In this document: in pieces, positions 2,232-63,898 of the stretch | How positions within the stretch are numbered: position 1 is the first letter of the stretch | Layout of the letters: each line of letters starts with the position of its first letter | Assembly: GCF_030028105.1 (NCBI RefSeq) | Contig: NC_092377.1 | Location: 103,779,177 to 103,843,176 of the forward strand | Direction: 5' to 3' | From: Mobula birostris | Lineage: Eukaryota | Length of the DNA stretch: 64,000 nucleotides | The notes under the pieces: generated by a model | Told to the model about the DNA's origin: nothing | What the model saw: only the letters and a program-made list of their open reading frames with translations | Database searches by the model: none | Made by a program: the position numbers and the translations under genes

Positions 2232-3220
2232 TGGAGGGGCAGATAATGTTGAGGAAGCAGGGTGTCTGCAGAAGGACTGAGAAGAGCATGGTCATTGAAC
2301 AAAGATATATCATAGATTGAACAAAGGCATAGACAACTTTCTAAACAGGGAGAAGATTCAAATATCAGAGGAGCAAAGTGACTTGGGAGTCCTTGTGCAG
2401 GAGTCCCTACTGGTTAATTTGTAGATTGAGTTGGTAGTAAGGAGAGCAAATGCATTGTCACCTTTCAGTTTCAGAGATCCAGTACATTCAAGATTCAAGA
2501 TTGTTTATTGTCAGTCTTCAGTGTAAAAGAGAGTGAAAAGATTGTTACTCTGGATTCAATGCAGCATAAAAAACAGAATAAACATAATGGGAACAATAAA
2601 ACATAATAAATACAAACACATAAGATTCGCTAAAATACGTAGAGTTATTGCATGTACATAAAGTGACTCAAATGTAATGCCAGCATTCATTCTGAGAGGA
2701 CTAGAATATAAAAGGAAGGATGTAATGCTGAAGCTTTATAAGGCATTGATCAGACTGCACGGAGTATTGTGAGCAGCTTGGGCCCCTTATCTATGAAAAG
2801 ATGTGCTGGCATTGGAGAGGGTCTAGAGGAGGTACCTGACAATGATGCTGGAACTCAAAAGGGGTGCTCGAGTATTGAAAGGCCAAGATAGAGTGGATGT
2901 GGAGAGGATGTATCCAATAATAAGGGAGTCTAAGACCAGGGGACACAGCCTCAGACTAAAGGGACACCCATTCAGAACAGTGATGAGAAGGAATTTCTTT
3001 AGGGTAGTGAATCTGTTAACTCATTGCCACAAACTGCTATGGATGCCAACTCATAGGGTATATTTAAAGCAGAGGTTGCTAGGTTCTTAATTGGTCTGGG
3101 TGTGAATGTTCATGAGGAAAATCCAGTAGAATTGAGTTTGAAGGGGTAATCAATCAGCCATGATGGAATGGCAGAGCAGACTCGATGGGCTGAATGGCCT
3201 CATTCTGCTCCTATGTCTTA
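2232..3220 (+). mobile_element. CR1 LINE 3' fragment
   Basis: TRGHSLRL..FF.RVVNL motif; 3' tail gggctgaatggcctcattctgctcctatgtctta. Confidence 0.8.
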
Positions 3221-4149
3221 AAGCCTTTTCGTTAGTTAACACGGTTATCTCTGATCTGTGCTGATCACAGCTCCAGTGTCTGTTTCCCTACCCCTTAGTT
3301 CCTCACTCCCTTTATCTATCCCCACCTGAAATATACCTAGCCACATGGCCTCCACACCCTTAGGGTCAGAGAATCCCATAGATTGCTCACTCAGACATAT
3401 AATTCCAGAAAATTCCATATGTCTCCATATGAAATGAGCATCCCCTAACTTTGCCCTGTCCATTACTTTCTGACTGATGAAGGGAGATGGCCTATCAAGA
3501 TACTCAACAGACACCCTATCAGGCCCCCTTAATATCACATGTGAATATACTCTAAATTCAGGCCCAAATTGTCTCCCCTCTGCTGGTAAATCATCCCAGG
3601 AATTTCACTGGCAAATCTCCTCTGGACTGACTCCAATGTTATTCTTATCATTTCTTTTAGCTCAGGGAACAAACCGTGCACAGAATTCCAGATGAGTCCT
3701 CGCCAACACCGTGTACATTGGGAACTACACCGCCCCGTTCCTAAACTCCACTCCCTGTGCAGTAAAGGCCAAAGAGCCATCTGCCTTCTGAACCACTTGA
3801 TGCAGAATCACAATGTCATCATCGGATTTCCTTCCACTGTCTCTGTGTCATCAGCAGACTTGGACATCTCACATCTCGTTCCCTCCTCATGGTCAACAAC
3901 TGTGGCCAAGAGCCGATCTCTAGGGTATTCCAAAAGTTACCTCCTTCCAGTGAAATCGACCCACTTATTCCAGCCACTCATAAAACACTGGGGAGCTCAG
4001 TGGGTCAGGAAGTGTCTCTGGAGAGGAATGGACAGTGGACAAAGTCATTGTGTCACCTTTGCTCATTTAGGAAATCACTTTGTTCAGCATCCTGTGGTTC
4101 TGACTATCTGCCACTGAGACCACGTTTGTTTTCTGTTTTCTCTGGGTAC

Positions 4150-4702
4150 GTAACAATGTACTGAGTAACAAGTGACCAGTGGCATTCACACCACACAGAG
4201 TCAATCTCCAACGAGAAAGCATCATCACCTACTCTTGAGGGTGAATGGCATTGCTGACTCGGAGTTTACCACCATCAAATGTCAGGAGGGTCACAATAAT
4301 CAGAAAGTCTTCAGAAACAGCTGTGTAAATACAATGTGTTCTTCGTAAGTCTGTGGGACAGGCCCAGAATGTGAAGCTAACCTAATGGAGCGCGACAAAC
4401 TTAACCAAGTCACAGACTGATGAAAGGCAGAAATGAGCCATTCTGATATGGAGGGAAGGCAGAGAATTTGATGTTGTGTTCAGATGCCTGACTGTGCCTG
4501 GTTAGAAGACCAAAATTATTTTAGCTGAAACATTTTCCTTCACTCGTTGACATCCTTTGTAGAAAAGACAAAAGATGTGTGTATGGGTATCTCAAACACA
4601 ACAGCACGAAAATTCTGCTGTGTCTTTCAGTTTAACAGCATCTGAATGCCACCAATCCTTGAATGTGGAGGAGGAGATTCTTGAGGAGACTGCACACCAG
4701 TC
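4150..4702 (+). pseudogene. 5' part of ZNF paralog (intron end and start of exon), separated from its fingers by a CR1 insertion
   Basis: Aligns by eye with 11010-11570 (upstream of the intact ZNF) and 14580-15230. Confidence 0.65.
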
Positions 4703-7700
4703 CATAAGACCATAAGACATAGGAGCAGATCTAGGCCATCGAGTCTGCTCCGCCATTCCATCATGGCTGATCCCGGATTTCACTCAACCCCGTTCACCTA
4801 CCTTTGATGCCTGACGAATCAGGCAACTATCAATTTTCGCTGTACATATAACCACTGACTTGGTGTCCACAGGAGTTTGTGGCAGAGCGCTCCACAGGTT
4901 CATTATTCTCTGGCTAACAAAATTCCTCCTTACCTCTGTTCCAACGGGTCACCCCTCAACTTTGAGGCTGTGCCCTCTAGTTCTGGATACCCCCACCATA
5001 GGAAACATCCTCTCCACATCCACCTTATCTAATCTTTCAACATTCGGTAGGTTTCAATGAGATCTCCCCACATTCTTCTAAATTCCAGTGAGTACAGACC
5101 GAAAGCTGCCAAATGCTCCTCATAGGTTAACCCCTTCATTCCCAGAATCATTCTCATGGCCTCTCTCTGGATTCTGTCCAGTGACAACACATCCTTTCTG
5201 AGATATGGGGCCCAAAAATACTCCAAATGCAGCCTGACTAGTGTCTTATAAAGCCTCAGCATTGTCTTCTTGCTTTTATATTACACTCCCCTTGAATTAA
5301 ATGCCAACATTGCACTTGCCCTCTTTACCATAGACTCAACCTGTAAATTAACCTTCTGAGAGTCTTGCACAAGGACTCCTCAGTCCTTCTGCACGTCTAA
5401 TGTTTGAATTTTCTCCCTATTTAAATAGTCTGAACTTTTGTTCCTTTTAGCAAAATGCAGTATCATACATTTCCCAACACTGTATACCATCTGCCACATT
5501 TTTCCCTGTTCCTTCAGTTTCTCTAAGTCCTGCTGAAATCACATTGCTTCCTCAGCACTACCTACCCGTCCACCCCTCTTCATATCATCTGCAAACTTTG
5601 CTACAAAGCCATCAATTCCATTATCTAAATCATTAACAAACAATATGAAAAGTAGCAGTCCCAATACTGACCCCTGAGGAACACCGCTAGTCACTGGCAG
5701 CCAACCAGAAAAATTCCCCTTTGTCCCACTTGCTGCTTCCTTCATATCAGCCATTCCTCTGTCCATGCCGGTATCTTAATTGTATTGCCATGGGATTTTA
5801 TCTTGTTAAGCAGCCTCATGTGTAGCACCTTATCAAATGCCTTCTGAAAATGCAAGTGAATGACATCCACTGCCTCTCCTTTGTCCACCCTGCTGTTACT
5901 TCCTCAAAGAACTCTAACTGATTTGTCAGGCAAGATTTCCCTTTACGGCAACTATGCTGACGTTGACTTACTTCATTATTCGTCTCCAAGTACACTGAAA
6001 CCTCATCTTAATAATAGACTCCTAACACTCTCTCAATCACTGAAGTTAGGCTAATTGGCCTATAATTTCCTTTCTTTTACCTTCCTCCCATCTTAAAGAG
6101 TGGTGTCACCATTGCAATTTACCAGTCCTCTGGGACAATACCAGGATCAAATGATTCTTGAAAGATCATAACCAATGCATCTGCTATTTCTTCAACAACC
6201 TCTTTCAGAACACTGAGATGTAGTCCATCTGGTCCAGGTGATTTATTCACCTTAAGACATTACAGTTTGCCTGGCACTTTTTCTTTTGTGATAGCAATGG
6301 CACTCATTTCCGCTCCCTGACACTTATGGACCTCTGGCAGACTGCTAGTGTCAACCACAGTGAAGACTGATGCCAAGTTCATCCGCCATTTCTTTGTCCC
6401 CTATTAATACCTCACCAGCCTTATTTTCCAGTGGTCCAATATCAGCTGTCACCTCCCTTTTACTCTTTATATAACTGAGAAAACTCTTAGTCTACTGCTT
6501 TATATTATTGGCTAGTTTACCTTCATATTTCATCTTTTCCCTTCTTATAGCTTTTTTAGTTGCCTTTTGTTGGATTTAAAAGCTTCCCAATCATGCAACG
6601 TCCCACTCACTTTTGCTACCTTTTATGCACTTTTCTTGGCTTTCATGCAGTCCTTAACTTCTTTTGTCAGCCACAGTTGCCTTCCCCTGCTATTTGAGAA
6701 CTTCTCTTTCTGTGGGACATACCTATCTTGTACCTTATGAACTATTCCCAGAAGCTTCAGCCACCTCTGTTCTGCCATCATCCCTGCCGGTATCCTCCTC
6801 CAATCCACCTGGGCAAGCTCATCTCTCATGCCTCTGTAATTCCCTTTATTCCATTGTGATACTGATACATCTGACTTATGCTTCTCCCTCTCAAATTGCA
6901 GAATGAATCCAATTATATTATGATCACTCTCCAGAGGGTTCCTTTATCTTAAACTCCCTTGTAAAATCTGGAATATTGCACAACACCCAATGTAGGACAG
7001 CCTTTCCCCGAGTAGGCTCAAGCACAAGCTGTTCTAAAAAGCCATCTCATTGGCATTCAACAAATTCCCTCTCTTGCGATCCAACATCAACTTGATTTTC
7101 CCAATCCCCTTGCATAATGAAGTCCCCCATTACAATTGTGTCATTACACTTATTACATGCCTTTTCCAGCTCCCTTTGCAATCTCAACCCCACATCTTAG
7201 CTACTATTTGGAGGCCTATATATGATTCCCGTAATGGCTTTTCTTTTTAACTTGCAGTTTCTTAACTCCACTCACAAAGATTCAACATTCTCTGACCCTG
7301 TATCATCTCTTTCTAAAGCTTTAGTTCCATCACTTACTACCACCTATGCATTCCTGCCTGTCCTTTTGATACAAAGTATATAATTTTATATTAAGCTCCC
7401 AACTATGACCTTCTTTCAGCCATGACTCAGTGATGCCCACAACATCCTACTGACCAATCTCTAATTGCGCCACGAGTTCATCCACCTTATTCCGAATTCC
7501 ATGTCCATTTAAATATAGCACCTTCAGTCTTGCATTCTTCGTCCTTTTGAATTCTGCTTCAGTGGTACAATTTAACTCTTTACTCTGTCTGCATTTGTAC
7601 CCAATCATTGGTTTGTCCTTCCTTACATTCATGTTACACGCATCATCCCAGCTCATCCTCAGCTCTATCAAACTGATTCCTGTCCCACTGCAATATTAGT

Positions 7701-15639: not shown

Positions 15640-17730
15640 GGAATGCTCCTCTTGAGATATGGGATGGCAGGGAGACTTCCAGTGTCTCTGACGACTACAC
15701 CCGCGGGAAGTGTATCGAGCTGCAGCTTCTAACAGACCGTGCTAAGGAATTGTAGAACTAAGATATCACATTTACTGTCTCCATCAGGGCTCCAGCACTC
15801 TGTTGTCTCCCACAGCAGCCTGGGATACAACTCATCAGGGCCTGGGCATTTATCTACTTTTATCCCTGCAAAGACAGAATAATTTCTCCTTTTAAATCTT
15901 AACATGCTGCAGAACTTCACTGCCAAACCTGAGATCTCCAATAACAATGTCTTTCTCCTTGGTGAATGCTGATGAGAAATATTCATTTCAGGCCCTGCCC
16001 ACATCCTCTGGCCCCACACAATGGTTGTCACTTTGGTTTTGTTTAGCTCTGGTTACCCTCTTGTTCTTAATATACTTAGAGTACTACTTGCTACTGTTAT
16101 TAGTTCTTGAGGTTTTTATTAATATTCAATGTTACTGATATATTGTGACACCACTTTGTTCTTCTGATTACTTAATACATTCCCAACACTCTGTGTCCAC
16201 CAGTCTTCAGCAATCTTTACCCATTACATGCTGCTTATTCTTTCAGTCAATATCCCGTGGCATCCCTTCTCCTTCCCTCCACAGGAAAACAGTGACCGTG
16301 AACTCTCACTACTTCACCATTTAACAACTTCCAATTCCCAAATGCTGGGTGGTCTTGGGGACCTGAGTTAGAAATAGAAGTTGTGTAGATTAGGGACAAG
16401 CCACCAGGGACAGGGCTCTGGCACTGGGACTCTCTGTGACTCAAAGGAGAAGGAGGTAGAGGAATGTGGTAGTGATAGGGGATTCACTGGATAGGGGTAT
16501 AGACAGGAAATTCTGTGGATGAAAACAATACTTCTGGATGTATGTTACTTATTCAGATGCCAGGATCAGAGACGTCTCAGATCATTCATGGGGGGGGGGG
16601 GTTGGTAGCTAGAAGCTGTGGTCCACATCTGGTATCATTGGGCAAGGGTCTTGCAGCTGGATTATAACATTGGTGAATGTTAGGTCAACCATGTTGGAAG
16701 GAAAAAATAGAAGATTCAATTATTATTTCAATGGTGAAAGTTTGCAGCAAGCTGTGTGGCACCTTGTCAAAGGCCTTCTGAAAATCTGATTACAGAACAT
16801 CAACTGATTCTCCTTCGTCTATCCTGCTTGTTACATCTTCAAAGAATTCCAACAGATTTCTCAGGCAAGATTTTCCCTTGAGGAAACTATGCTGACAGTG
16901 GCCTATTTTATCACGTGCTTCCAAGTACCCTGAGACCTCATCCTTAATAATTGACTCCTACATCTTCCCAAACATGAGGTCAAACTAACCGGCCTATTGT
17001 TTCCTTTCTTCTGCTTCTCTCCCTTCTTGAAGAGTGAAGTGATATTTACAATTTCCCACTCTTCCAGAACTATTCCAGAATATAGTGATTCTTGAAATGC
17101 CTCTGTGATCTCTTCAGCCACCTCTTTCAGAACTCTGGATTGTACACCATCTGGTCCAGGTGACTTCTACTGTACTGTACTTTTTTTCCCCAGAACTCTC
17201 TCTCTAGTTAGGGTAACATCACACACTTCATTCCCCCTGACACCTGGAATTTCCACCATACTGCTAGTGTCTTCCACAGTGAAGACTGATGCAAAATTCC
17301 TATTCAGTTCATCCATCATTTTGTTGTTGTTCATATCTACCTATGCAGCATTCGGATATCCACTCTCTTTCCTCTCTTTTACACTTTACATTCTGCTATT
17401 TAACCTGCCATTCAATGGACTATTTCATCAAAATCCCACTCCAATCCTGGATAATCTTCACTGTCCACTATGCCACTAATTTTGGAGTCATCTACAGTCT
17501 CACTAACCATCTTGGAATGGAGGCCAGTGACTAATGGTACGCCACTGTGGTCAATGTTGGGACCCTTGTTATTTGTTATTCATATAAATGATTTAGATGT
17601 AATTGCACAGGGTTTCATCAGTATGTTAATGGACAACACAAAATTAGGAGTGTTTGTTGATTGTGAAGAAGGTTATTGTAGATTACAGAGCGGATTGATC
17701 AGTTAGAGAAGTGGAGCAAGGAGAGGCAGA
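15640..17730. mobile_element. Mosaic of decayed CR1 fragments in both orientations
   Basis: DKCPGPD.LYPRLL; LFKKG..GN.RPVSLTS; W.PVTNG.P..S.LGPLLFVI.INDLD. Confidence 0.7.
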
Positions 17731-17732
17731 TA

Positions 17733-20700
17733 AAGAAAACATACAGCACAGTACAGGCCCTTCAGCCCACAAAGCTGTGCTGAACATGTCCCTACCTTAG
17801 AACTACCTAGGCTTTACTCATAGCCCTCTATTTTTCTAAGCTCCGTGTAGCTATCCAGGAGTCTCTTAAAAGATCCTATTGTTTCTGCCTCAACCACTAC
17901 TGCTGGCAGCCCATTCCACGCACTCAGCACTCTCTGCGTAAAAAACTTACCCCTGACATCTCAGCCATGCACTCATCTGCCATAACCTCCTGTTCCTACC
18001 CTCTCTGTCTTGCGGCACAGGCAGCAATCCCGAGATTACCACCCTTGAGGTCCTGCTTTTTAACTTCTTTCCTAACTCCCTATATTTCTTCTTCAGGACC
18101 TCATCTCTACTCCTATGTATGTCATTGGTCCCCACGTGGACCATGACATCTGGCTGCTCATCCTCTCTCCTGAGAATACTGAGAACTCGATCCGAGACTA
18201 TCTGGGATTCTCGATCTTTCCCACAGAACCTCTTATCCGTCCCCCTAACTATCAAATCCCCTATCACTACTGCTCTCCTCTTTTCCCTCCTTCCTTTCTG
18301 AGCTGAGGGTGCAGTCTCAGTGCCAGAGACGTGACCACTAGAACTTGTCCCTGGTAGTTCATCCCCATCAACAATATCCAAAACGTAATATTTATTGTTG
18401 ATTGGAACGGCCACAGGGGTGCTCTGCTCTTTCTGCCTATTCCCCTTCCCTCTCCTGATAATCACCCAGTTACCTGTCTCCTGACTTTTAGGGGTGACTG
18501 TCTCCCTGAAACTCCGATCTATTACTACCTCTGCCTCCCGAATGATCTGAAGTTCATCCAGCTCCAGCTCCAGTTCCCTAACTCTGTTTAACAGGAGCTG
18601 CAGCTGGATGCACCTTTTGCAGGTGTATTCATCAGAGACAATTGTGCTGTCCCTGACTTCCCACATCTTACAATCAGATCACTGGACTGCCCTATCTACT
18701 GCCTCCATTACCAACTCCTAAATTGATTAAATTAATTAAAGAAACTTACCCGGCTTTACCTCACTGGGAGCAAGCTCGTCCTCAATCTCTGCTTGCCGAA
18801 GCTTCTCGAGCCAAAGCCCCGAAGCTTCTCGAGCCAAAGCCTCAAAGCTCCACTCCTTCACTGGCCCACTCACTCACTGTCCGCGTCTGCTTGAGCTACC
18901 CCTCTTTTTATTTGTTTAAGCTTTCAATTTTCAATTGCCTAATCAAGCTGCTGATGAATGCGTGACTGAAGAGTTGGTGCAAGGGGCAGGGGTTCAGATT
19001 TCTGGATCATTGGGATCTCTTCTGGGGAAGGTCTGACCTGTACAAAAAGGACAGGCTTCACCCGAACTGGAAAGGGACCAATATCCTGGCGGGCAGGTTT
19101 GCTAGAGCTGTTGGGGAGGGTTTAAACTAGCTTGGCAGGGGGGTGGGAATCAGAATGTGAATGCAGAGATCAGGGTAGAAGGACAAGGGCATGATGCTAT
19201 GTGTTCTGAGTTGGTGAGGAAGGACAGGCAGGGGACAAAACATAAATATAGCCAGTTAGAGGGGTTGAAATGTGTCTATTTCAGCGCTAGGAGTATTAGG
19301 AATAAAGGGGATGAACTTAGAGCATGGATCAGTATGTGGAACTACGATGTTGTGGCCGTTACTGAAACTTGGCTGGAGGAAGGGCAGGATTGGCTGATGC
19401 AGGTACCGGGGTTTAGGTGTTCTAAATGGAATAGGATGGGAGGTAGAAAAAGGGAGGGGGGGGAGTAGCATTACTGCTCAGGGATAGTATCACGGCTATA
19501 AAAAGGGAAATGCTGTAGAGGGAGTATCCATTGAGTCGGTGTGGGTGGAAGTCAGAAATAGGAAGGGATCAATCACTGTGGTGGGAGTAGTCTATAGGCC
19601 CCCAAATAGCCCTCAGGACACCAAGGAGCAGATAAGCAGGCAGATTTCAGAATGGTGCAGGAAATACAGGGTTGTAGTTAGGGGTGATTTCAACTTCCCT
19701 TATATTGACTGGCACTTCCTCACTGCAAGGGGGATAGATGGGGCTGAATTTGTCAGGTGTGTACTAGAAGGATCCTAAAACAGTACGTGGACCAGCCGAC
19801 GAGAGGAGAGGCCATACTGTATCTAGTTCTGGGTAATGAACCTGGTCAGGTGGCAGACCTCTTGGTGGGGGAGCATTTTGGTGAGAGTGACCACAACTCC
19901 CTGAGCTTCAGCATAGCTATGGAAAAGGATAAAAACAGACAAAATGGGAAAGTGCTTAACTGGGGAAGGGCTAACTATGAAGGGATGAGGCAGGAACTAG
20001 CGAGAGTAAATTGGAAACAGATGTTCAAGGGTGAAAGCACACAAGTAATGTGGAGGAAGTTTAGGGACCACATGTCCTGGGTTCAGGATAGGTTTGTCCC
20101 ACTGAAACAAAGAAAAAATGGCAGGAAAAAGGAACCATAGCTGATGAAACACGTGAGGCAATTTGTCAAGAGGAAGAAGGAAGCATATGTTAGATATAAG
20201 AAGCAGGAGGGGCTCAGGAGAATTATAGGATAGCCAGGAAGGAGCTTAAGAAAGGAGTTGGGGCGAGCTCAAAGGGAGCCTGAGAAGGCCTTGGCATATA
20301 GGATTAAGGAGAACCCCTTGTGTATGTGAAGAACAGAAGGATGACAAGAATGAAGGTGGGGCTGCTAAATGATAAAGAAGGCAACATGTGCCTGAAGGTG
20401 GAGGAGGTTGGGGAGGTCCTAAGTGAATACTTCGCTTCAGTATTCACAAGATAAAAGGACCTTGATCAGGGTGAGGTCGAAATAGAACAGGCCTGTGTGC
20501 TGGACAATGTGGAGATTAAGGAAAAAGTAACATTGGATCTTCTTAAAAACATCAAGATTGATAAGTGCTGTGGGAAGTGAGAAAAGAGATCGCTGGAGCA
20601 GTAGCTATGATCTTTGAATCCTCTTTGGCTGCAGGGGAGGTGCCGGAGGATTGGAGAATGACAAATGTAGTTCCCTTGTTTAAAAAAGGTAATAGGGAGA

Positions 20701-22730
20701 ATCCTGGGAATTATAGACCGGTGAGTCTTACGTCGGTGGTCTGCAAACTATTGGAAAGGATTCTTAAGGATAGGATCTGCGAGGATTTGGAGAAGTACAG
20801 TCTACTCAAGGATAGTCAACATGGCTTTGTGAAGGGTAGGGCGGTAGATGTGGTCTACATGGATTTTAGCAAGGCATTTGACAAGGTCCCCCACGAGAGA
20901 CTCATCCAGAAAGTCATGAGGCATGGGATCAGTGGAACCTAGGAAGAAAGCAGAGGGTAGTAGTGGAAGGAAAGTATTCTGCCTGGAGGTCGGTGACTAG
21001 TGGAGAGCCGCAAGGATCTGTCCTGGGACCCCTGCTCTTTGTGATTTTTATAAATGAACTGGATGAAGAGGCGGAAGAATGGGTGAGTAAGTTTGTGGAT
21101 GACACAAAGATTGGAGGAGTTGTGGATGGAGCTGTAGGTTGTCGAAGGTTACAAGAGGATATAGACAGGATGCAGAGTTGGGCAGAAAAGTGGCAGATGG
21201 AGTTCAATCCAGATAAGTGTGAGGTGATGCATTTTGGAAGGACAAATCAGAAGGCTGGGTGCACGGTTAATGGTCCGTTACTTAAGAGTGTGGATGAACA
21301 GAGGGATCTTGGGGTTCAAATCCATACATCCCTCAAGGTCGCTGCACAGGTTGATAGGATAGTTAAGAAAGCCTATGGGATGCTAGGCTTCATTAATAAG
21401 ATTAGGGAGTTCAAGAGTAGAGTGGAGAGGTCACATTGCAACTGTACAAAGTCCAAGAGTAGAGAGGTCATGTTGCAGCTCTACAAATCTTTGGTGAGAC
21501 TCTGGTCACCTCATTATAGGAAGGATGTGGAAGCTATGGAGAGGGTGCAGAGGAGATTTACCAGGATGTTGCCTGGATTGGAAAACAAGTCTTATGAGGC
21601 AAGGTTAGCAGAGCTGGGACTTTTCTCTTTGGAGCATAGAAGGATGAGAGGGGACTTGATAGAGGTCTACAAGATTACGAGAGGCATAGATAGGGTGGAT
21701 AGCCAGTACCTGTTTCCCAGGGCACGAATAGTAAACACCAGAGGGCATATGTACAAAGTTAAGGGAAGGGAGACATCAGGGGTAAGTTTTTTTTAAAACA
21801 CAGAGGGTTGTGGGTGCCTGGAATGACTTGCCAGGGACGGTGGTGGAGGCTAAAACATTAGAGATATTTAACAGCCTCTTGGACAGGCACATGGATGAAA
21901 GAAAAATAGAGGGTTACAGGGTAGTGTGGGTTTAGTACTTTTTTTTAAGGATTATATGGGATGGCACAACATCGAGGGCAGAAGGGCCTGTACTGTGCTG
22001 TTGTATTCTAGTGTATAGTATCTCCTCTGTACCTACTTCCAAGCATCTTAAAACTATGCCCTCTCATGCTAGCAATTTCAGCCCTGGGGCAAAGCCTGTG
22101 ACCATCCACACGATCAATGCCTCTCATTACCTTGCACACCTCTATCAAGTCACCTCTCATCCTCCGTCGCTCCAAGGAGAAAAGGCCGAGTTCACTCAAC
22201 CTATTCTCATAAGGCATGCTCCCCAATCCAGGCAACATCCTTGTAAATCTCCTCTGCACCCTTTCTATGGTTTCCACGTCCGTCCTGTAGCGAGGCGACC
22301 AGAACTGAGCACAGTACTCCAAGTGGGGTCTGACCAATGTCCTATATAGCTGTAACATTACCTCTCGGCTCTTAAACTCAATCCCACGATTGATGAAGGC
22401 CAATGCACCGTATGCCTTCTTAACCACTGGGTCAACCTGCACAGCAGCTTTGAGTGTCCTATGGACTCGGACCCCAAGATTCCTTTGATCCTGCTCACTG
22501 CCAAGAGTCTTACCAGTAATACTACATTCTGCCATCATATTTGACCTATCAAAATGAACCACTTCATACTTATCTGGGTTGAACTCCATCTGCCACTTCT
22601 CAGCCCAGTTTTGCATCCTATCAATGTCCATTGTAACCTCTGACAGCCCTCCACACTATCCACAACACCCCCAACCTTTTTTGCTGATGACACACTTACT
22701 AACCCATCCCTCCACTTCCTCATCCAGAAG
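17733..22730 (-). mobile_element. Host CR1 3' half (17733-17962 plus 22020-22730), split by a nested CR1 insertion
   Basis: acttacccctgacatctc|ctctgtacctacttccaagc is contiguous in the related copy at about 63770-63810; ORF 22008-22631 is the CR1 ORF2 C-terminus. Confidence 0.85.
17963..22019 (+). mobile_element. Near full-length CR1 with inverted 5' segment (5'UTR and ORF1 on minus, 17963-18950; ORF1 end, ORF2 and tail on plus, 18951-22019), TSD atctc
   Basis: Minus ORF 17947-18666 is ORF1 (VIGD..VRG, VHVGTND, SGLLP); plus strand carries EN (SARSIRNK, ETW, GDFN, SDH) and RT (NYRPVSLTS, DFSKAFD, PQGS, FVDD). Confidence 0.88.
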
Positions 22731-34319: not shown

Positions 34320-37090
34320 TAACATAGGAGTAGAAATAGGCCATTTGGCTCATCAAGTCTGCACTGGCATTCCATCATGGCTGATTATTATCTCTCTCAA
34401 CCCTATTCTCCTGCCTACTCCCTGTAATCTTTGATGCCCTGACTAATTGAGAACCTATCAATCTCCACTCTAAATATACCCAATGACTTGGCCTCCACAG
34501 CCCTCTGTGACAATGAATTCCAAAGATTAACTACCCTCTGCCTAAAGAAATTCCTCTTCATCTCTGTTCTTAATTGGCATCGGTCTATTCTAAGGCTGTA
34601 CCCTGTCATCCAAGACTCACCCACTATAGGAAGCATCCTCTCCGCATCCACTGTATTTGATAGTTTTCAAAGAGATGCCCACTCATTATTCTAAACTCCA
34701 GTGATTACAGGCCCAGGGCCATCAAATGCACCACATATGTTAATCCTTTCATTCCCAGAATTATTCTCTTGAACCACCAATGGACCCTCTCCAATGCCAG
34801 CACATCTTTTCTCAGACAAGGGCACAAAAGCTGGTCACAATACTCCAAGTGTGGTCTGACCAATGCCTTATAAAGCATTAGTATTACACCCTTGCTCTTG
34901 TACTCCAGTCCTCTGAGAAAGAATGCTAATGTTGCATTTGCCTTCCTTATCACCAACTGAACTGGCAAGTTAACTTTTTAGGAATTTTGCACCAAGGATA
35001 TTTGAATTTTCTTCCTTTTTAGAAAATAGTCTATCAAAATGCATGAACATAAACTTCTCTTCCTGGCCCTCCACTTATCTTTATATCATCCACCAACTTG
35101 GCAGTAAAGGCATCAATTAATAATAATAATAATAAAATAAAAGATTTGAAAAGTAAAGGCATCAATTACAACAAGCAAATCATTGACATATAATGTGAAA
35201 AGGAGTGGTCCCAACACCGACCCCTGTGGAACACCACTAGTCACTGGCAGCCAACCAGAAAAGGTGGCCTTTATTCCCACTCTTAGCCTCCCATCAGTCA
35301 GCCAATTTTCTATCTATGCTAGTATCTTTCCTGTAATACCATGGGCTCTTATCTTGTTAAGCAAGCTCATACGCGCCACCCTGTTAAAGATCTTCTGAAA
35401 ATCCAAGTAAACAACAAGTGCAGATTTGTCAGGCAAGATTTTCCCTTAAGTCATAGTCATAGCCGTACTTTATTGATCCCGGGGGAAATTGGTTAAAGGA
35501 AACTATGCTAACTTTGGTTTATTTTATCATGTGTCTCCAAGTACCCGGAAAGCAAGTCCTTCATAATGATTCCAACATCTTCCCAACCTCTGAAGTCAGG
35601 CTAACCTCCCCCTTCCCTTCTAAAAGAGTGCAGTGATATTTCCAAATTTCCACTCCACTGGAACCATTCCAGAATGTAGTGAACTTTGAAAGATCATTGC
35701 TAATCGCTCCACAATCTCTCAGCTACTTCTTTCATGACCCTGGTCCAGGGGACAACCTACCTTCAGATTTTTCAGCTTCCCAAGCACCTTCTCCTTATTA
35801 ATAGATTTTGCCCCCTGGGATCCAGCACCAACCGGATTTTCCAAATCTACCTGCATATTGAAATCCCCCATAACTATTGTAGCATTACCCATTTTGCATG
35901 CCTTTTCTATCCCTTGTAATTTCCAGCTCACATCCTGGCTACTGTTCGGACGCTTGTACATATTTAACTCCCATAAGGGTCTTTTTACCTGTGCAGTTTC
36001 TTAACTCTCCCCTCAAGGCTTCAACATTTTCCAAGGAATTGATTTCATTTTTACCAACAGAGCCAACCCACCCCCTCTGCCTACCTGCCTGTCCTTTCAA
36101 TACAATGTGTACCCTTGGGTGTTAAGCTCCTAACTGTAATATTCTTTCAGCCACAAATCAGTGATGCTCACAACGTCATAACAGCCAATCTGTAAATGCA
36201 CTACAAGATCATCTATCTTATTCTGTATACTGTGTGTATTCAAATGGAACACCTTCAGTCCTGTATTCAACACCCTTTTCAATTTTGCCCTCATGGTACA
36301 CTTCACCTCAGCCCATTGACTGCAATTTTGCCCTATCATCTGCATGCCTTTCCTCACAGTCTCACTACACACTGCACCTACTTGTATACCAACTGCTGCA
36401 TCCTCAGCCCTATCACTCGGCTTCCCAACACCCTGCCAAAATAGTTTAAACTCTCGCCACAGATATAGCAAACCTACCAATACCCCCCTCCCCTTGGGTT
36501 CAGGTGTAACTCCTTCCTTTTGTACAGGCCAAGTCTTCCCCAGAACAAATCCCAGTGATCCAGAAATCTGAAACTATGCCCCCCGCAGCAGTTCCTCAGC
36601 CTTGCATTCATCTGCCAATTCATCCTATTCTTGCCCTCACTTTCTGTTCCCCTAATCAACAAATCCTCAATCATGACAGCGTGTCCATCTCCCCATTCAC
36701 CTCTGAGCTACAGAGCCAGATTTAGTGCCGGACACCTGACTGCTGTGGCTTTCCTCTGCTAGGTCATCTCCCTGACCCCCCAGCATACCCCAGTATCCAA
36801 AGAGGGGAGTACCTGTTGTCGTGGGGAATGGCCACAGAGGCACTCTGCACTGGCTGCCTATCCCCTTTTCCTTCCCCTGCAATCACTCAGCTACCTGCCT
36901 TCTGCAACTTCGGAGTGACTACCTTACTGCAGCTCCTAGCTATCACCTCCTCATTCTCCCATGTGAGCTGAATGTCGTCAAGCTTAATACGGTCTCTAAG
37001 GAGCTGCAGCTCAGTGAACTTCATGCAGATACAGTATCAGGGAGACTTAAGGTCTCCCGGAGTTCCCAAATCTCACACAAAGAACCACAG
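34320..37090 (-). mobile_element. Internally deleted CR1 (ORF1, EN and RT remnants, 3' tail)
   Basis: RFLDHWDLFWGR..LY, LN.HSIQNKIDDL, MGDFN, LVRPHLEYC, FF.QRVVNLWNSL. Confidence 0.85.
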
Positions 37091-63554: not shown

Positions 63555-63898
63555 AAACAGAGAAAGCCGACAGCCCAATACAGGCCCTTCAGCCACAATG
63601 CTGTGTCGAACATGTACTTACTTCAGAAATTACCTCAGGTAACCCATAGCCCTCTATTTTTCTAAGCCCCATGTACCGATCCAACAGTCTCTTAGAAGAC
63701 CCTATTGGTTCCACCTCCACCACTGTTGCTGGCAGCCCATTCCACGCACTCGCCACTCTCTTTGTGAAAAACTTACCCCTGACATCTCCTCTGTACCTAC
63801 TTCCAAGCACCTTAAACCTGTGTCCTCTCGTGTTAGCCATTTCAGCCCTGGGAAAAATCCTCTGATTATCCACACAATCAATGCCTCTCATCATCTTT
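63555..63898 (-). mobile_element. CR1 3' end, relatively young
   Basis: MRGID.VD.Q.IFPR..TRGHRFKV..FFT.RV..WN.LP; same subfamily as 17733-22730. Confidence 0.85.

What the first reader, a model, noticed from the sequence alone, without database searches (positions are those of the whole stretch)
17958..22024. CR1 LINE with a twin-priming-type 5' inversion, nested in another CR1 with a clean TSD
Seen: the 5'UTR and ORF1 (17963-18950) lie on minus and stop at ..QMSAWL. The plus strand resumes at the same ORF1 position (atgaatgcgtgactg, MNA*L) at about 18951 and runs through ORF2 to the tail. The unit is bounded by atctc (17958-17962, 22020-22024) inside a host CR1 whose unsplit form is at about 63770-63810, and the inverted end shares ctc microhomology with the TSD. 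Known: this geometry is the twin-priming signature described mainly for mammalian L1. Inference: a CR1-clade element can retrotranspose by twin priming. Caveat: the ~17-bp overlap between the two halves has 3 mismatches.
Basis: partly seen in the sequence, partly recalled or inferred. Interest (0 to 1): 0.7.

Follow-up and report, generated by a model that had tools for sequence, protein, structure and literature searches.

The report
CR1 retrotransposon inserted front-flipped
A dead CR1 jumping gene in a cartilaginous-fish genome sits between two copies of a 5-base target with its front quarter turned backwards, a rare layout in this family (about 1 copy in 100) that likely arises when both cut DNA ends start copying the same RNA, a route known mainly from mammalian L1 and thought unlikely for elements with such short target overhangs.

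Summary
Confirmed. One CR1 copy (17963-22019) lies antisense in an older CR1, between two ATCTC copies; the host holds ATCTC once in unsplit copies. Its 5' 990 nt are inverted; the forward part resumes at the same ORF1 position with a 15-nt overlap. Both halves belong to one family and are equally old (3.8% vs 3.9% divergence). Corrections: exact microhomology with the TSD is 2 nt (TC), not 3; the 3 overlap mismatches are ordinary (18% of copy pairs). Among about 206 other family copies with a visible 5' end, 2 show the same simple layout (candidate TSDs 4-5 nt) and 5 a forward-reverse-forward layout that simple twin priming does not give. Family TSDs are 4-7 nt. So the flip most likely happened during insertion (about 0.85); twin priming is the best mechanism (0.6), end-joining of cDNA pieces the main rival (0.25). 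Public runs did not settle the junctions. It is a counter-example to the published idea that about 5-nt overhangs are too short for twin priming, though at about 1% versus 18-31% for L1. The scan noted CR1 and RTE 5' inversions before on other DNA. Four key older papers could not be read.

The parts
17734..17962 (-). 3' end of the host CR1 (another family, about 70% identical to the insert), left of the insertion
   Evidence: blastn to unsplit copies at 63561-63788 (83%) and 30965-30761 (77%)
17958..17962 (+). Left target-site duplication ATCTC; its last 2 nt (TC, 17961-17962) also match the family sequence continuing past the inverted end (microhomology)
17963..18952 (-). Inverted 5' segment: part of the 5' UTR (about 18709-18952, starts inside the UTR) and the first three quarters of ORF1 (start codon near 18708; zinc-finger-like and leucine-zipper-like stretch by eye, then esterase); one stop, a 33-nt deletion near 18197, a 23-nt duplication near 18837
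   Evidence: ORF1 matches PDB 4c1b 'ORF1-encoded protein' E 8.7e-7, weak Lipase_GDSL_2 E 0.0045, below cut-off
17963..17977 (-). First copy of the 15-nt overlap at the inversion point
18953..18967 (+). Second copy of the 15-nt overlap; start of the forward segment
18953..22019 (+). Forward segment: end of ORF1 (stop 19128-19130), broken ORF2 (endonuclease and reverse transcriptase remnants, several stops, frameshifts and deletions), 3' UTR
   Evidence: Pfam Exo_endo_phos_2 E 6.9e-6 and RVT_1 E 1.3e-11 and 3.5e-13
22008..22019 (+). Tail: one and a half units of the family's CTAGTGT repeat
   Evidence: 3' ends of 20 near-full-length copies
22020..22024 (+). Right target-site duplication ATCTC
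22020..22727 (-). Remainder of the host CR1, continuing without loss

Best explanation
This is a single CR1 insertion whose front part was likely inverted during integration, most likely by twin priming. Shown: one family, one age, a 5-nt duplication of the host, a continuous inversion point with a 15-nt overlap. Inferred steps: the endonuclease nicked the host twice, 5 nt apart; the first nick primed reverse transcription at the CTAGTGT tail and ran about 3.1 kb up to late ORF1; the second 3' end (..ATCTC) paired through its last 2 nt (4 with a bulge) with the same RNA 15 nt downstream of where the first cDNA stopped and copied about 1 kb towards the 5' end; the two cDNA ends were joined nearly blunt and gaps were filled. 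The product cannot move again and has no evident function; it is a record of the integration chemistry. In this family the route is rare, about 1% of copies.
For: 26 of 29 best genomic matches to the left half run colinearly into the right half (88-94%) with the same 15-nt overlap. Non-CpG divergence from the family majority: left 29/756 (3.8%), right 115/2929 (3.9%), Fisher p 1.0; family median 3.3%, 5-95% range 2.5-4.5%, n 127. Both halves carry the majority allele at all readable diagnostic sites, 10 of 11 (weak, the family shows little subfamily structure). Host continuous across the insert with exactly 5 nt doubled. Family TSDs of 4-8 nt: 54 of 150 junction pairs against 18.6 expected from shuffled pairs. 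Two more simple cases: L231 (inverted 3771->5' start, 368-nt deletion at the inversion point, 3-nt microhomology CTG, TSD GCCT or TGCCT) and L129 (inverted 4238->1676, 4-nt deletion, candidate TSD GTAT). Overlap length fits human L1 twin-priming overlaps (median 12, quartiles 4-17; PMC12016303, passages); 2-5 nt microhomology is the L1 norm (PMC2912911, passages).
Against: Five copies are forward-reverse-forward (L077, L152, L281, L321, L322), more than the simple cases; a forward outermost piece is not what a second-nick primer on RNA gives, and in human tumours switching variants are 23 of 1,703 inverted inserts (10.1101/2024.08.27.596794, passages). L281 has an 8-nt TSD, so multi-piece joining can occur during insertion. 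Microhomology at the TSD is only 2 nt here (chance 1 in 16) and 1 nt in L231, and microhomology is also typical of plain truncated junctions. PMC4245944 (passages) found no inversion for the 5-bp-TSD element ZfL2-1 and argues that about 5 nt is too short. The TSDs of L129 and L231 were read by eye without an empty site; a 4-nt or longer match arises by chance in 12% of shuffled pairs. No listed contig bridged a junction in either read lay.
Confidence: 0.6

Rival explanations
1. Inversion during insertion, but by end-joining or template switching rather than by second-nick priming: the cDNA (or RNA:cDNA hybrid) broke or switched template near late ORF1, and the distal piece was joined backwards between the host end and the first cDNA.
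For: Forward-reverse-forward copies are at least as common as simple ones in this family (5 vs 2 among about 206); L281 joins three pieces inside an 8-nt TSD; junction microhomologies of 0-5 nt and 1-13 extra bases fit end-joining.
Against: The same 15 nt lie on both arms, which a single broken cDNA gives only with a staggered break or re-synthesis; in the three simple cases the inversion point faces the TSD, as twin priming predicts.
Confidence: 0.25
2. The element inserted normally and its 5' kilobase was inverted later by staggered double-strand-break repair.
For: L321 and L322 look like in-place inversions with 80-100 nt duplicated at one breakpoint; staggered breaks duplicate short stretches; no orthologue could be read.
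Against: One breakpoint would have to fall within 2 nt of the TSD boundary, leaving no forward remnant of the element and no inverted or lost host base; the two overlap copies differ as much as separate family copies do, so the overlap is about as old as the insertion (only 15 sites).
Confidence: 0.1
3. Two independent insertions of the same family met head to head, or the assembly joined two copies.
For: In L146 an insertion of one family into another ends within about 10 nt of the same reference position, so such coincidences occur; reads did not bridge the junctions in the listed rows.
Against: The left half has no tail and no continuation anywhere beside it, both halves are one family and age, and one TSD encloses both with the host restored exactly. 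In L146 the host continues on both sides and the families differ.
Confidence: 0.05

Closest known systems
5'-inverted (twin-primed) mammalian L1 insertions; model of Ostertag and Kazazian 2001 (paper not held; seen as described in PMC2912911, PMC12016303 and 10.1101/2024.08.27.596794, passages)
   Same: TSD - inverted 5' part - forward 3' part - tail - TSD; continuous inversion point with short overlap or deletion; short microhomology at the outer junction.
   Different: CR1 clade, repeat tail instead of poly(A); TSD 5 nt instead of 10-20; about 1% of copies instead of 18-31%; forward-reverse-forward copies as common as simple ones.
ZfL2-1 (CR1-1_DR, L2 clade) and Nimb-2_DR inserts in cultured cells (PMC4245944, passages)
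   Same: Esterase-type ORF1 relative and about 5-bp TSD (ZfL2-1); one non-L1 inversion was seen for Nimb-2 (TSD peak about 12 bp).
   Different: ZfL2-1 gave no 5' inversion, and the authors suggest a 5-nt overhang may be too short. Their samples (tens of inserts per element) could miss a 1% event.
'Twin priming and 5'/3' switching' L1 variants in tumours (10.1101/2024.08.27.596794, passages)
   Same: A second change of orientation next to a twin-priming-type inversion, as in L281, L321, L322, L077.
   Different: Rare in L1 (23 of 1,703 inverted inserts); I did not see the figure and did not verify that their layouts equal the forward-reverse-forward order found here.
Canonical vertebrate CR1 (PMC13343379, passages)
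   Same: Esterase ORF1, APE endonuclease plus RT in ORF2, no poly(A) tail.
   Different: That survey's main text has no word beginning 'inver': it does not treat inverted copies.

Membership tests
CR1-clade LINE | ORF2 with APE endonuclease and reverse transcriptase | tested here: met
   Pfam Exo_endo_phos_2 (26.4 bits, just under cut-off 27.4) and RVT_1 (45 and 50 bits) in broken pieces
CR1-clade LINE | Esterase-type ORF1 (chondrichthyan L2 lack ORF1 per PMC13343379) | tested here: met
   PDB 4c1b E 8.7e-7; Lipase_GDSL_2 E 0.0045, below cut-off
CR1-clade LINE | RT groups with named CR1 references in a tree | tested here: inconclusive
   No named CR1 reference or tree. Best named homologues are shark, ray and skate proteins (47-66%) and then bird and turtle RTs (39-48%); that bird LINEs are mostly CR1 is recalled
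CR1-clade LINE | Short tandem-repeat tail and short TSD (peak 3-5 bp per PMC4245944) | tested here: met
   (CTAGTGT)n tail; excess of 4-7 nt TSDs
Twin-primed 5'-inverted insertion | Both parts from one element (same family and age) | tested here: met
Twin-primed 5'-inverted insertion | Inversion point faces the upstream TSD; forward part resumes there with a short overlap or gap | tested here: met
   15-nt overlap
Twin-primed 5'-inverted insertion | One TSD around the whole unit, no target loss | tested here: met
Twin-primed 5'-inverted insertion | Complementarity between the second target end and the RNA beyond chance | tested here: inconclusive
   2 nt exact here (1 in 16), 1 nt in L231, 3 of 4 in L129 (TSD there chosen by eye)
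Twin-primed 5'-inverted insertion | Microhomology between the two cDNA ends | tested here: inconclusive
   blunt or imperfect here; 3 nt in L231; one extra base in L129
Twin-primed 5'-inverted insertion | TSD of 10-20 bp as in L1 inversions | tested here: not met
   5 nt; this is an L1 trait, not a requirement shown for the mechanism
Twin-primed 5'-inverted insertion | Inverted at birth (no un-inverted orthologue) | tested here: inconclusive
   contig lays flooded by paralogues
Twin-primed 5'-inverted insertion | Reverse transcription primed from the second nick | not testable with these tools
   needs a retrotransposition or biochemical assay

The most novel reading that the evidence does not exclude
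CR1 integration can build an insertion from two or three separately made cDNA pieces: a 4-5-nt overhang is enough to prime a second cDNA, and forward-reverse-forward products are as common as simple 5' inversions, so short-TSD LINEs use an inversion pathway that differs in kind from that of L1.
Probability: 0.3. Interest if true: 0.6.

Novelty: new member of a known kind. Interest (0 to 1): 0.42.

Why it matters
5' inversion has been treated as a trait of L1 in mammalian cells, and one model ties it to long (10-20 nt) target overhangs. Three genomic CR1 copies with the same layout and 4-5-nt duplications would show that the overhang length lowers the rate (about 1% against 18-31%) rather than forbids the route, which bears on the open question of when the second strand is cut and opened during LINE integration. 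The young, 1,000-copy-scale family makes this countable genome-wide. It has no evident effect on host biology.

Tried and rejected
Read lays (runs X1, X4, X5, X7, X16, all contigs): flooded by paralogues, tables cut; X1 has exact pieces inside the locus and X7 a 97% orthologous flank (17300-17763), but no listed contig bridges a junction; no conclusion. A wide-gap pattern to find inversions genome-wide was not accepted, so frequencies rest on a sample. One pattern had a typing slip and found nothing. Generic all-against-all search for inversions in other repeats over about 1.2 Mb of flanks gave 6 flags; 5 of those inspected looked like separate insertions or unrelated neighbours and none was a clear case; sensitivity is low. 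L104/L120, L146, L246, L257 were rejected as inversions (other family inserted, or two independent copies). Empty sites for L129, L231, L281 were sought among fetched DNA and not found. Subfamily typing gave little structure. Papers not held: Ichiyanagi 2007, Ichiyanagi and Okada 2008, Kojima and Okada 2009, Ostertag and Kazazian 2001. No supplements were read.

Full report
Observation. The window (G000:C9, a 4.0-Gb genome; a cartilaginous fish by its closest named proteins) has ATCTC at 17958-17962 and 22020-22024. Left and right flanks are the two parts of a minus-strand CR1 whose unsplit form lies at 63561-63897 and 30965-30634. Over all DNA fetched, 18 gap-free matches carry the junction with one ATCTC-like 5-mer and none the doubled form, so exactly 5 host bases are duplicated and none lost. 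Between them, 17963-18952 reads on minus as 5' UTR plus ORF1 up to ..QMSAWL, and 18953-22019 reads on plus from MNA*LKSW through a broken ORF2 to the tail.

Element type. ORF1 matches the solved LINE ORF1 esterase 4c1b (E 8.7e-7); ORF2 pieces match endonuclease and RVT_1 models; the tail is (CTAGTGT)n. Best named RT homologues are from sharks, rays and skates, then birds and turtles. PMC13343379 (passages) says canonical CR1 carry an esterase ORF1 while chondrichthyan L2 lack ORF1. CR1 is therefore well supported, though no tree with named references was built.

One element, not two. Of the 29 best other matches to the left half, 26 continue colinearly into the right half at 88-94%; one crosses the point by about 40 nt only, one stops earlier, one is a sister family. 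In these copies the two halves overlap by 15 nt. Non-CpG divergence from the family majority is 3.8% (29/756) left and 3.9% (115/2929) right, p 1.0, within the family range 2.5-4.5%. The three mismatches in the overlap are ordinary: 17.8% of pairs among 48 copies differ at 3 or more of the 15 sites. The family sequence beyond the inverted end matches the TSD for 2 nt, not 3; the internal junction is blunt or imperfect.

Family survey. An exact 29-mer marks 338 tails, a mid-ORF2 24-mer 325 places. I sampled copies by 3', middle and 5' anchors: 301 blocks, 231 distinct by flank, 207 with the 5' end visible, one pair (L177/L322) counted twice. The sample is not uniform and leans to long copies and the first contigs. 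TSDs of 4-8 nt were found in 54 of 150 junction pairs against 18.6 expected from shuffled pairs (a few pairs are duplicates), so this family makes 4-7-nt duplications, and nearly half the copies show none. Two other copies have the simple layout. L231 is inverted from position 3771 to the 5' start, lacks 368 nt at the inversion point, has 3 nt of microhomology there and a 4-5-nt TSD. L129 is inverted from 4238 to 1676, lacks 4 nt, and has a candidate 4-nt TSD. That is 2 of about 206, 1.0% (95% interval 0.1-3.5%), this locus not counted. Five copies are forward-reverse-forward: L077, L152, L281, L322 from the blind sample and L321, which I picked from an opposite-strand pair in the lists. L281 lies in an 8-nt TSD and its forward head duplicates part of the inverted piece, so it was likely built during insertion.

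Mechanism. The layout, the outer breakpoint at the TSD, the intact host and the 15-nt overlap are what twin priming gives in L1: overlaps there have median 12 nt, quartiles 4-17 (PMC12016303, passages); 17% of inverted tumour inserts have duplications and 66% deletions (10.1101/2024.08.27.596794, passages); about 70% have 2-5 nt of microhomology and 31% of recent L1 are inverted (PMC2912911, passages). A later inversion would need a breakpoint within 2 nt of the TSD. I put inversion during insertion at about 0.85. Within that, second-nick priming is inferred, not shown: the microhomology is weak, and the forward-reverse-forward copies prove that another orientation-changing step acts on this family. 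Twin priming 0.6, end-joining or template switching 0.25, later inversion 0.1, two insertions or misassembly 0.05.

Reads. No run held half of the words. Both lays were flooded by paralogues and listed no contig that bridges a junction; they neither confirm nor contradict. The differing overlap copies and the restored host argue against a misjoin.

Literature. PMC4245944 (passages) saw 5' inversion only for L1 in human cells plus one Nimb-2 insert, none for ZfL2-1 with its 5-bp TSD, and proposes that about 5 nt may be too short. Seven searches (listings, with passages read from the papers cited, and from PMC5389967, PMC4476161 and PMC3747384, which added nothing on CR1 inversions) showed no report of twin-primed CR1. 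The four older papers most likely to hold such counts were not available, and no supplements were read, so absence from print is not established. Earlier notes of this scan describe CR1 5' inversions in other genomes and an RTE case in this genome; I did not check them.

Verdict. A real, old, dead CR1 copy with a 5' inversion made most likely during insertion; a new member of a known kind, of interest as a counter-example to the short-overhang limit and because the family's inversions are rare and often more complex than those of L1.

Noticed in passing
L281 (G000:C6:60481100-60490600), 2350-5322: Forward 3279-3566, reverse 4327-1644, forward 4312-tail, inside an 8-nt TSD (AATAAAAA): a three-piece insertion.
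   Followed up: partly
L321, L322, L077, L152: Four more forward-reverse-forward copies of the family; two duplicate 80-100 nt at one breakpoint, one is a 99-nt inverted templated insert.
   Followed up: partly
L146 6278-7933: A copy of one CR1 family inserted antisense into another family, its 5' truncation falling within about 10 nt of the host break in shared coordinates; mimics an inversion.
   Followed up: yes
L034-L055 (G000:C17, 0.9-31 Mb): Sixteen near-identical loci share one copy of this family with the same flanks: a large segmental or tandem repeat spread along contig C17.
   Followed up: no
G000:C5:3833576-4336053: Five tail matches spaced about 120-130 kb apart on the same strand: likely a large tandem duplication.
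   Followed up: no
window:21410-21465: About 40 nt of ORF2 appear twice in tandem with divergence (..AAGAGTAGAG..).
   Followed up: no
window:18800-18845: 23-nt tandem duplication in the 5' UTR of the inverted part; the family 5' UTR itself has a repeated unit of about 230 nt.
   Followed up: partly
P0001, P0005: The closest RT homologues (68% and 62%) are labelled Klebsiella and Proteus on 1.6-kb contigs: likely fish DNA contaminating bacterial records.
   Followed up: no
L263 3' flank: Another copy of the family has its tail at nearly the same position of the host CR1 family as the window's insertion, in the other orientation; chance or a weak target preference.
   Followed up: no
window:7673-8600 (minus), 36414-36615 (minus): Un-inverted ORF1 regions of related CR1 families (67-79%) in the same window.
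   Followed up: partly
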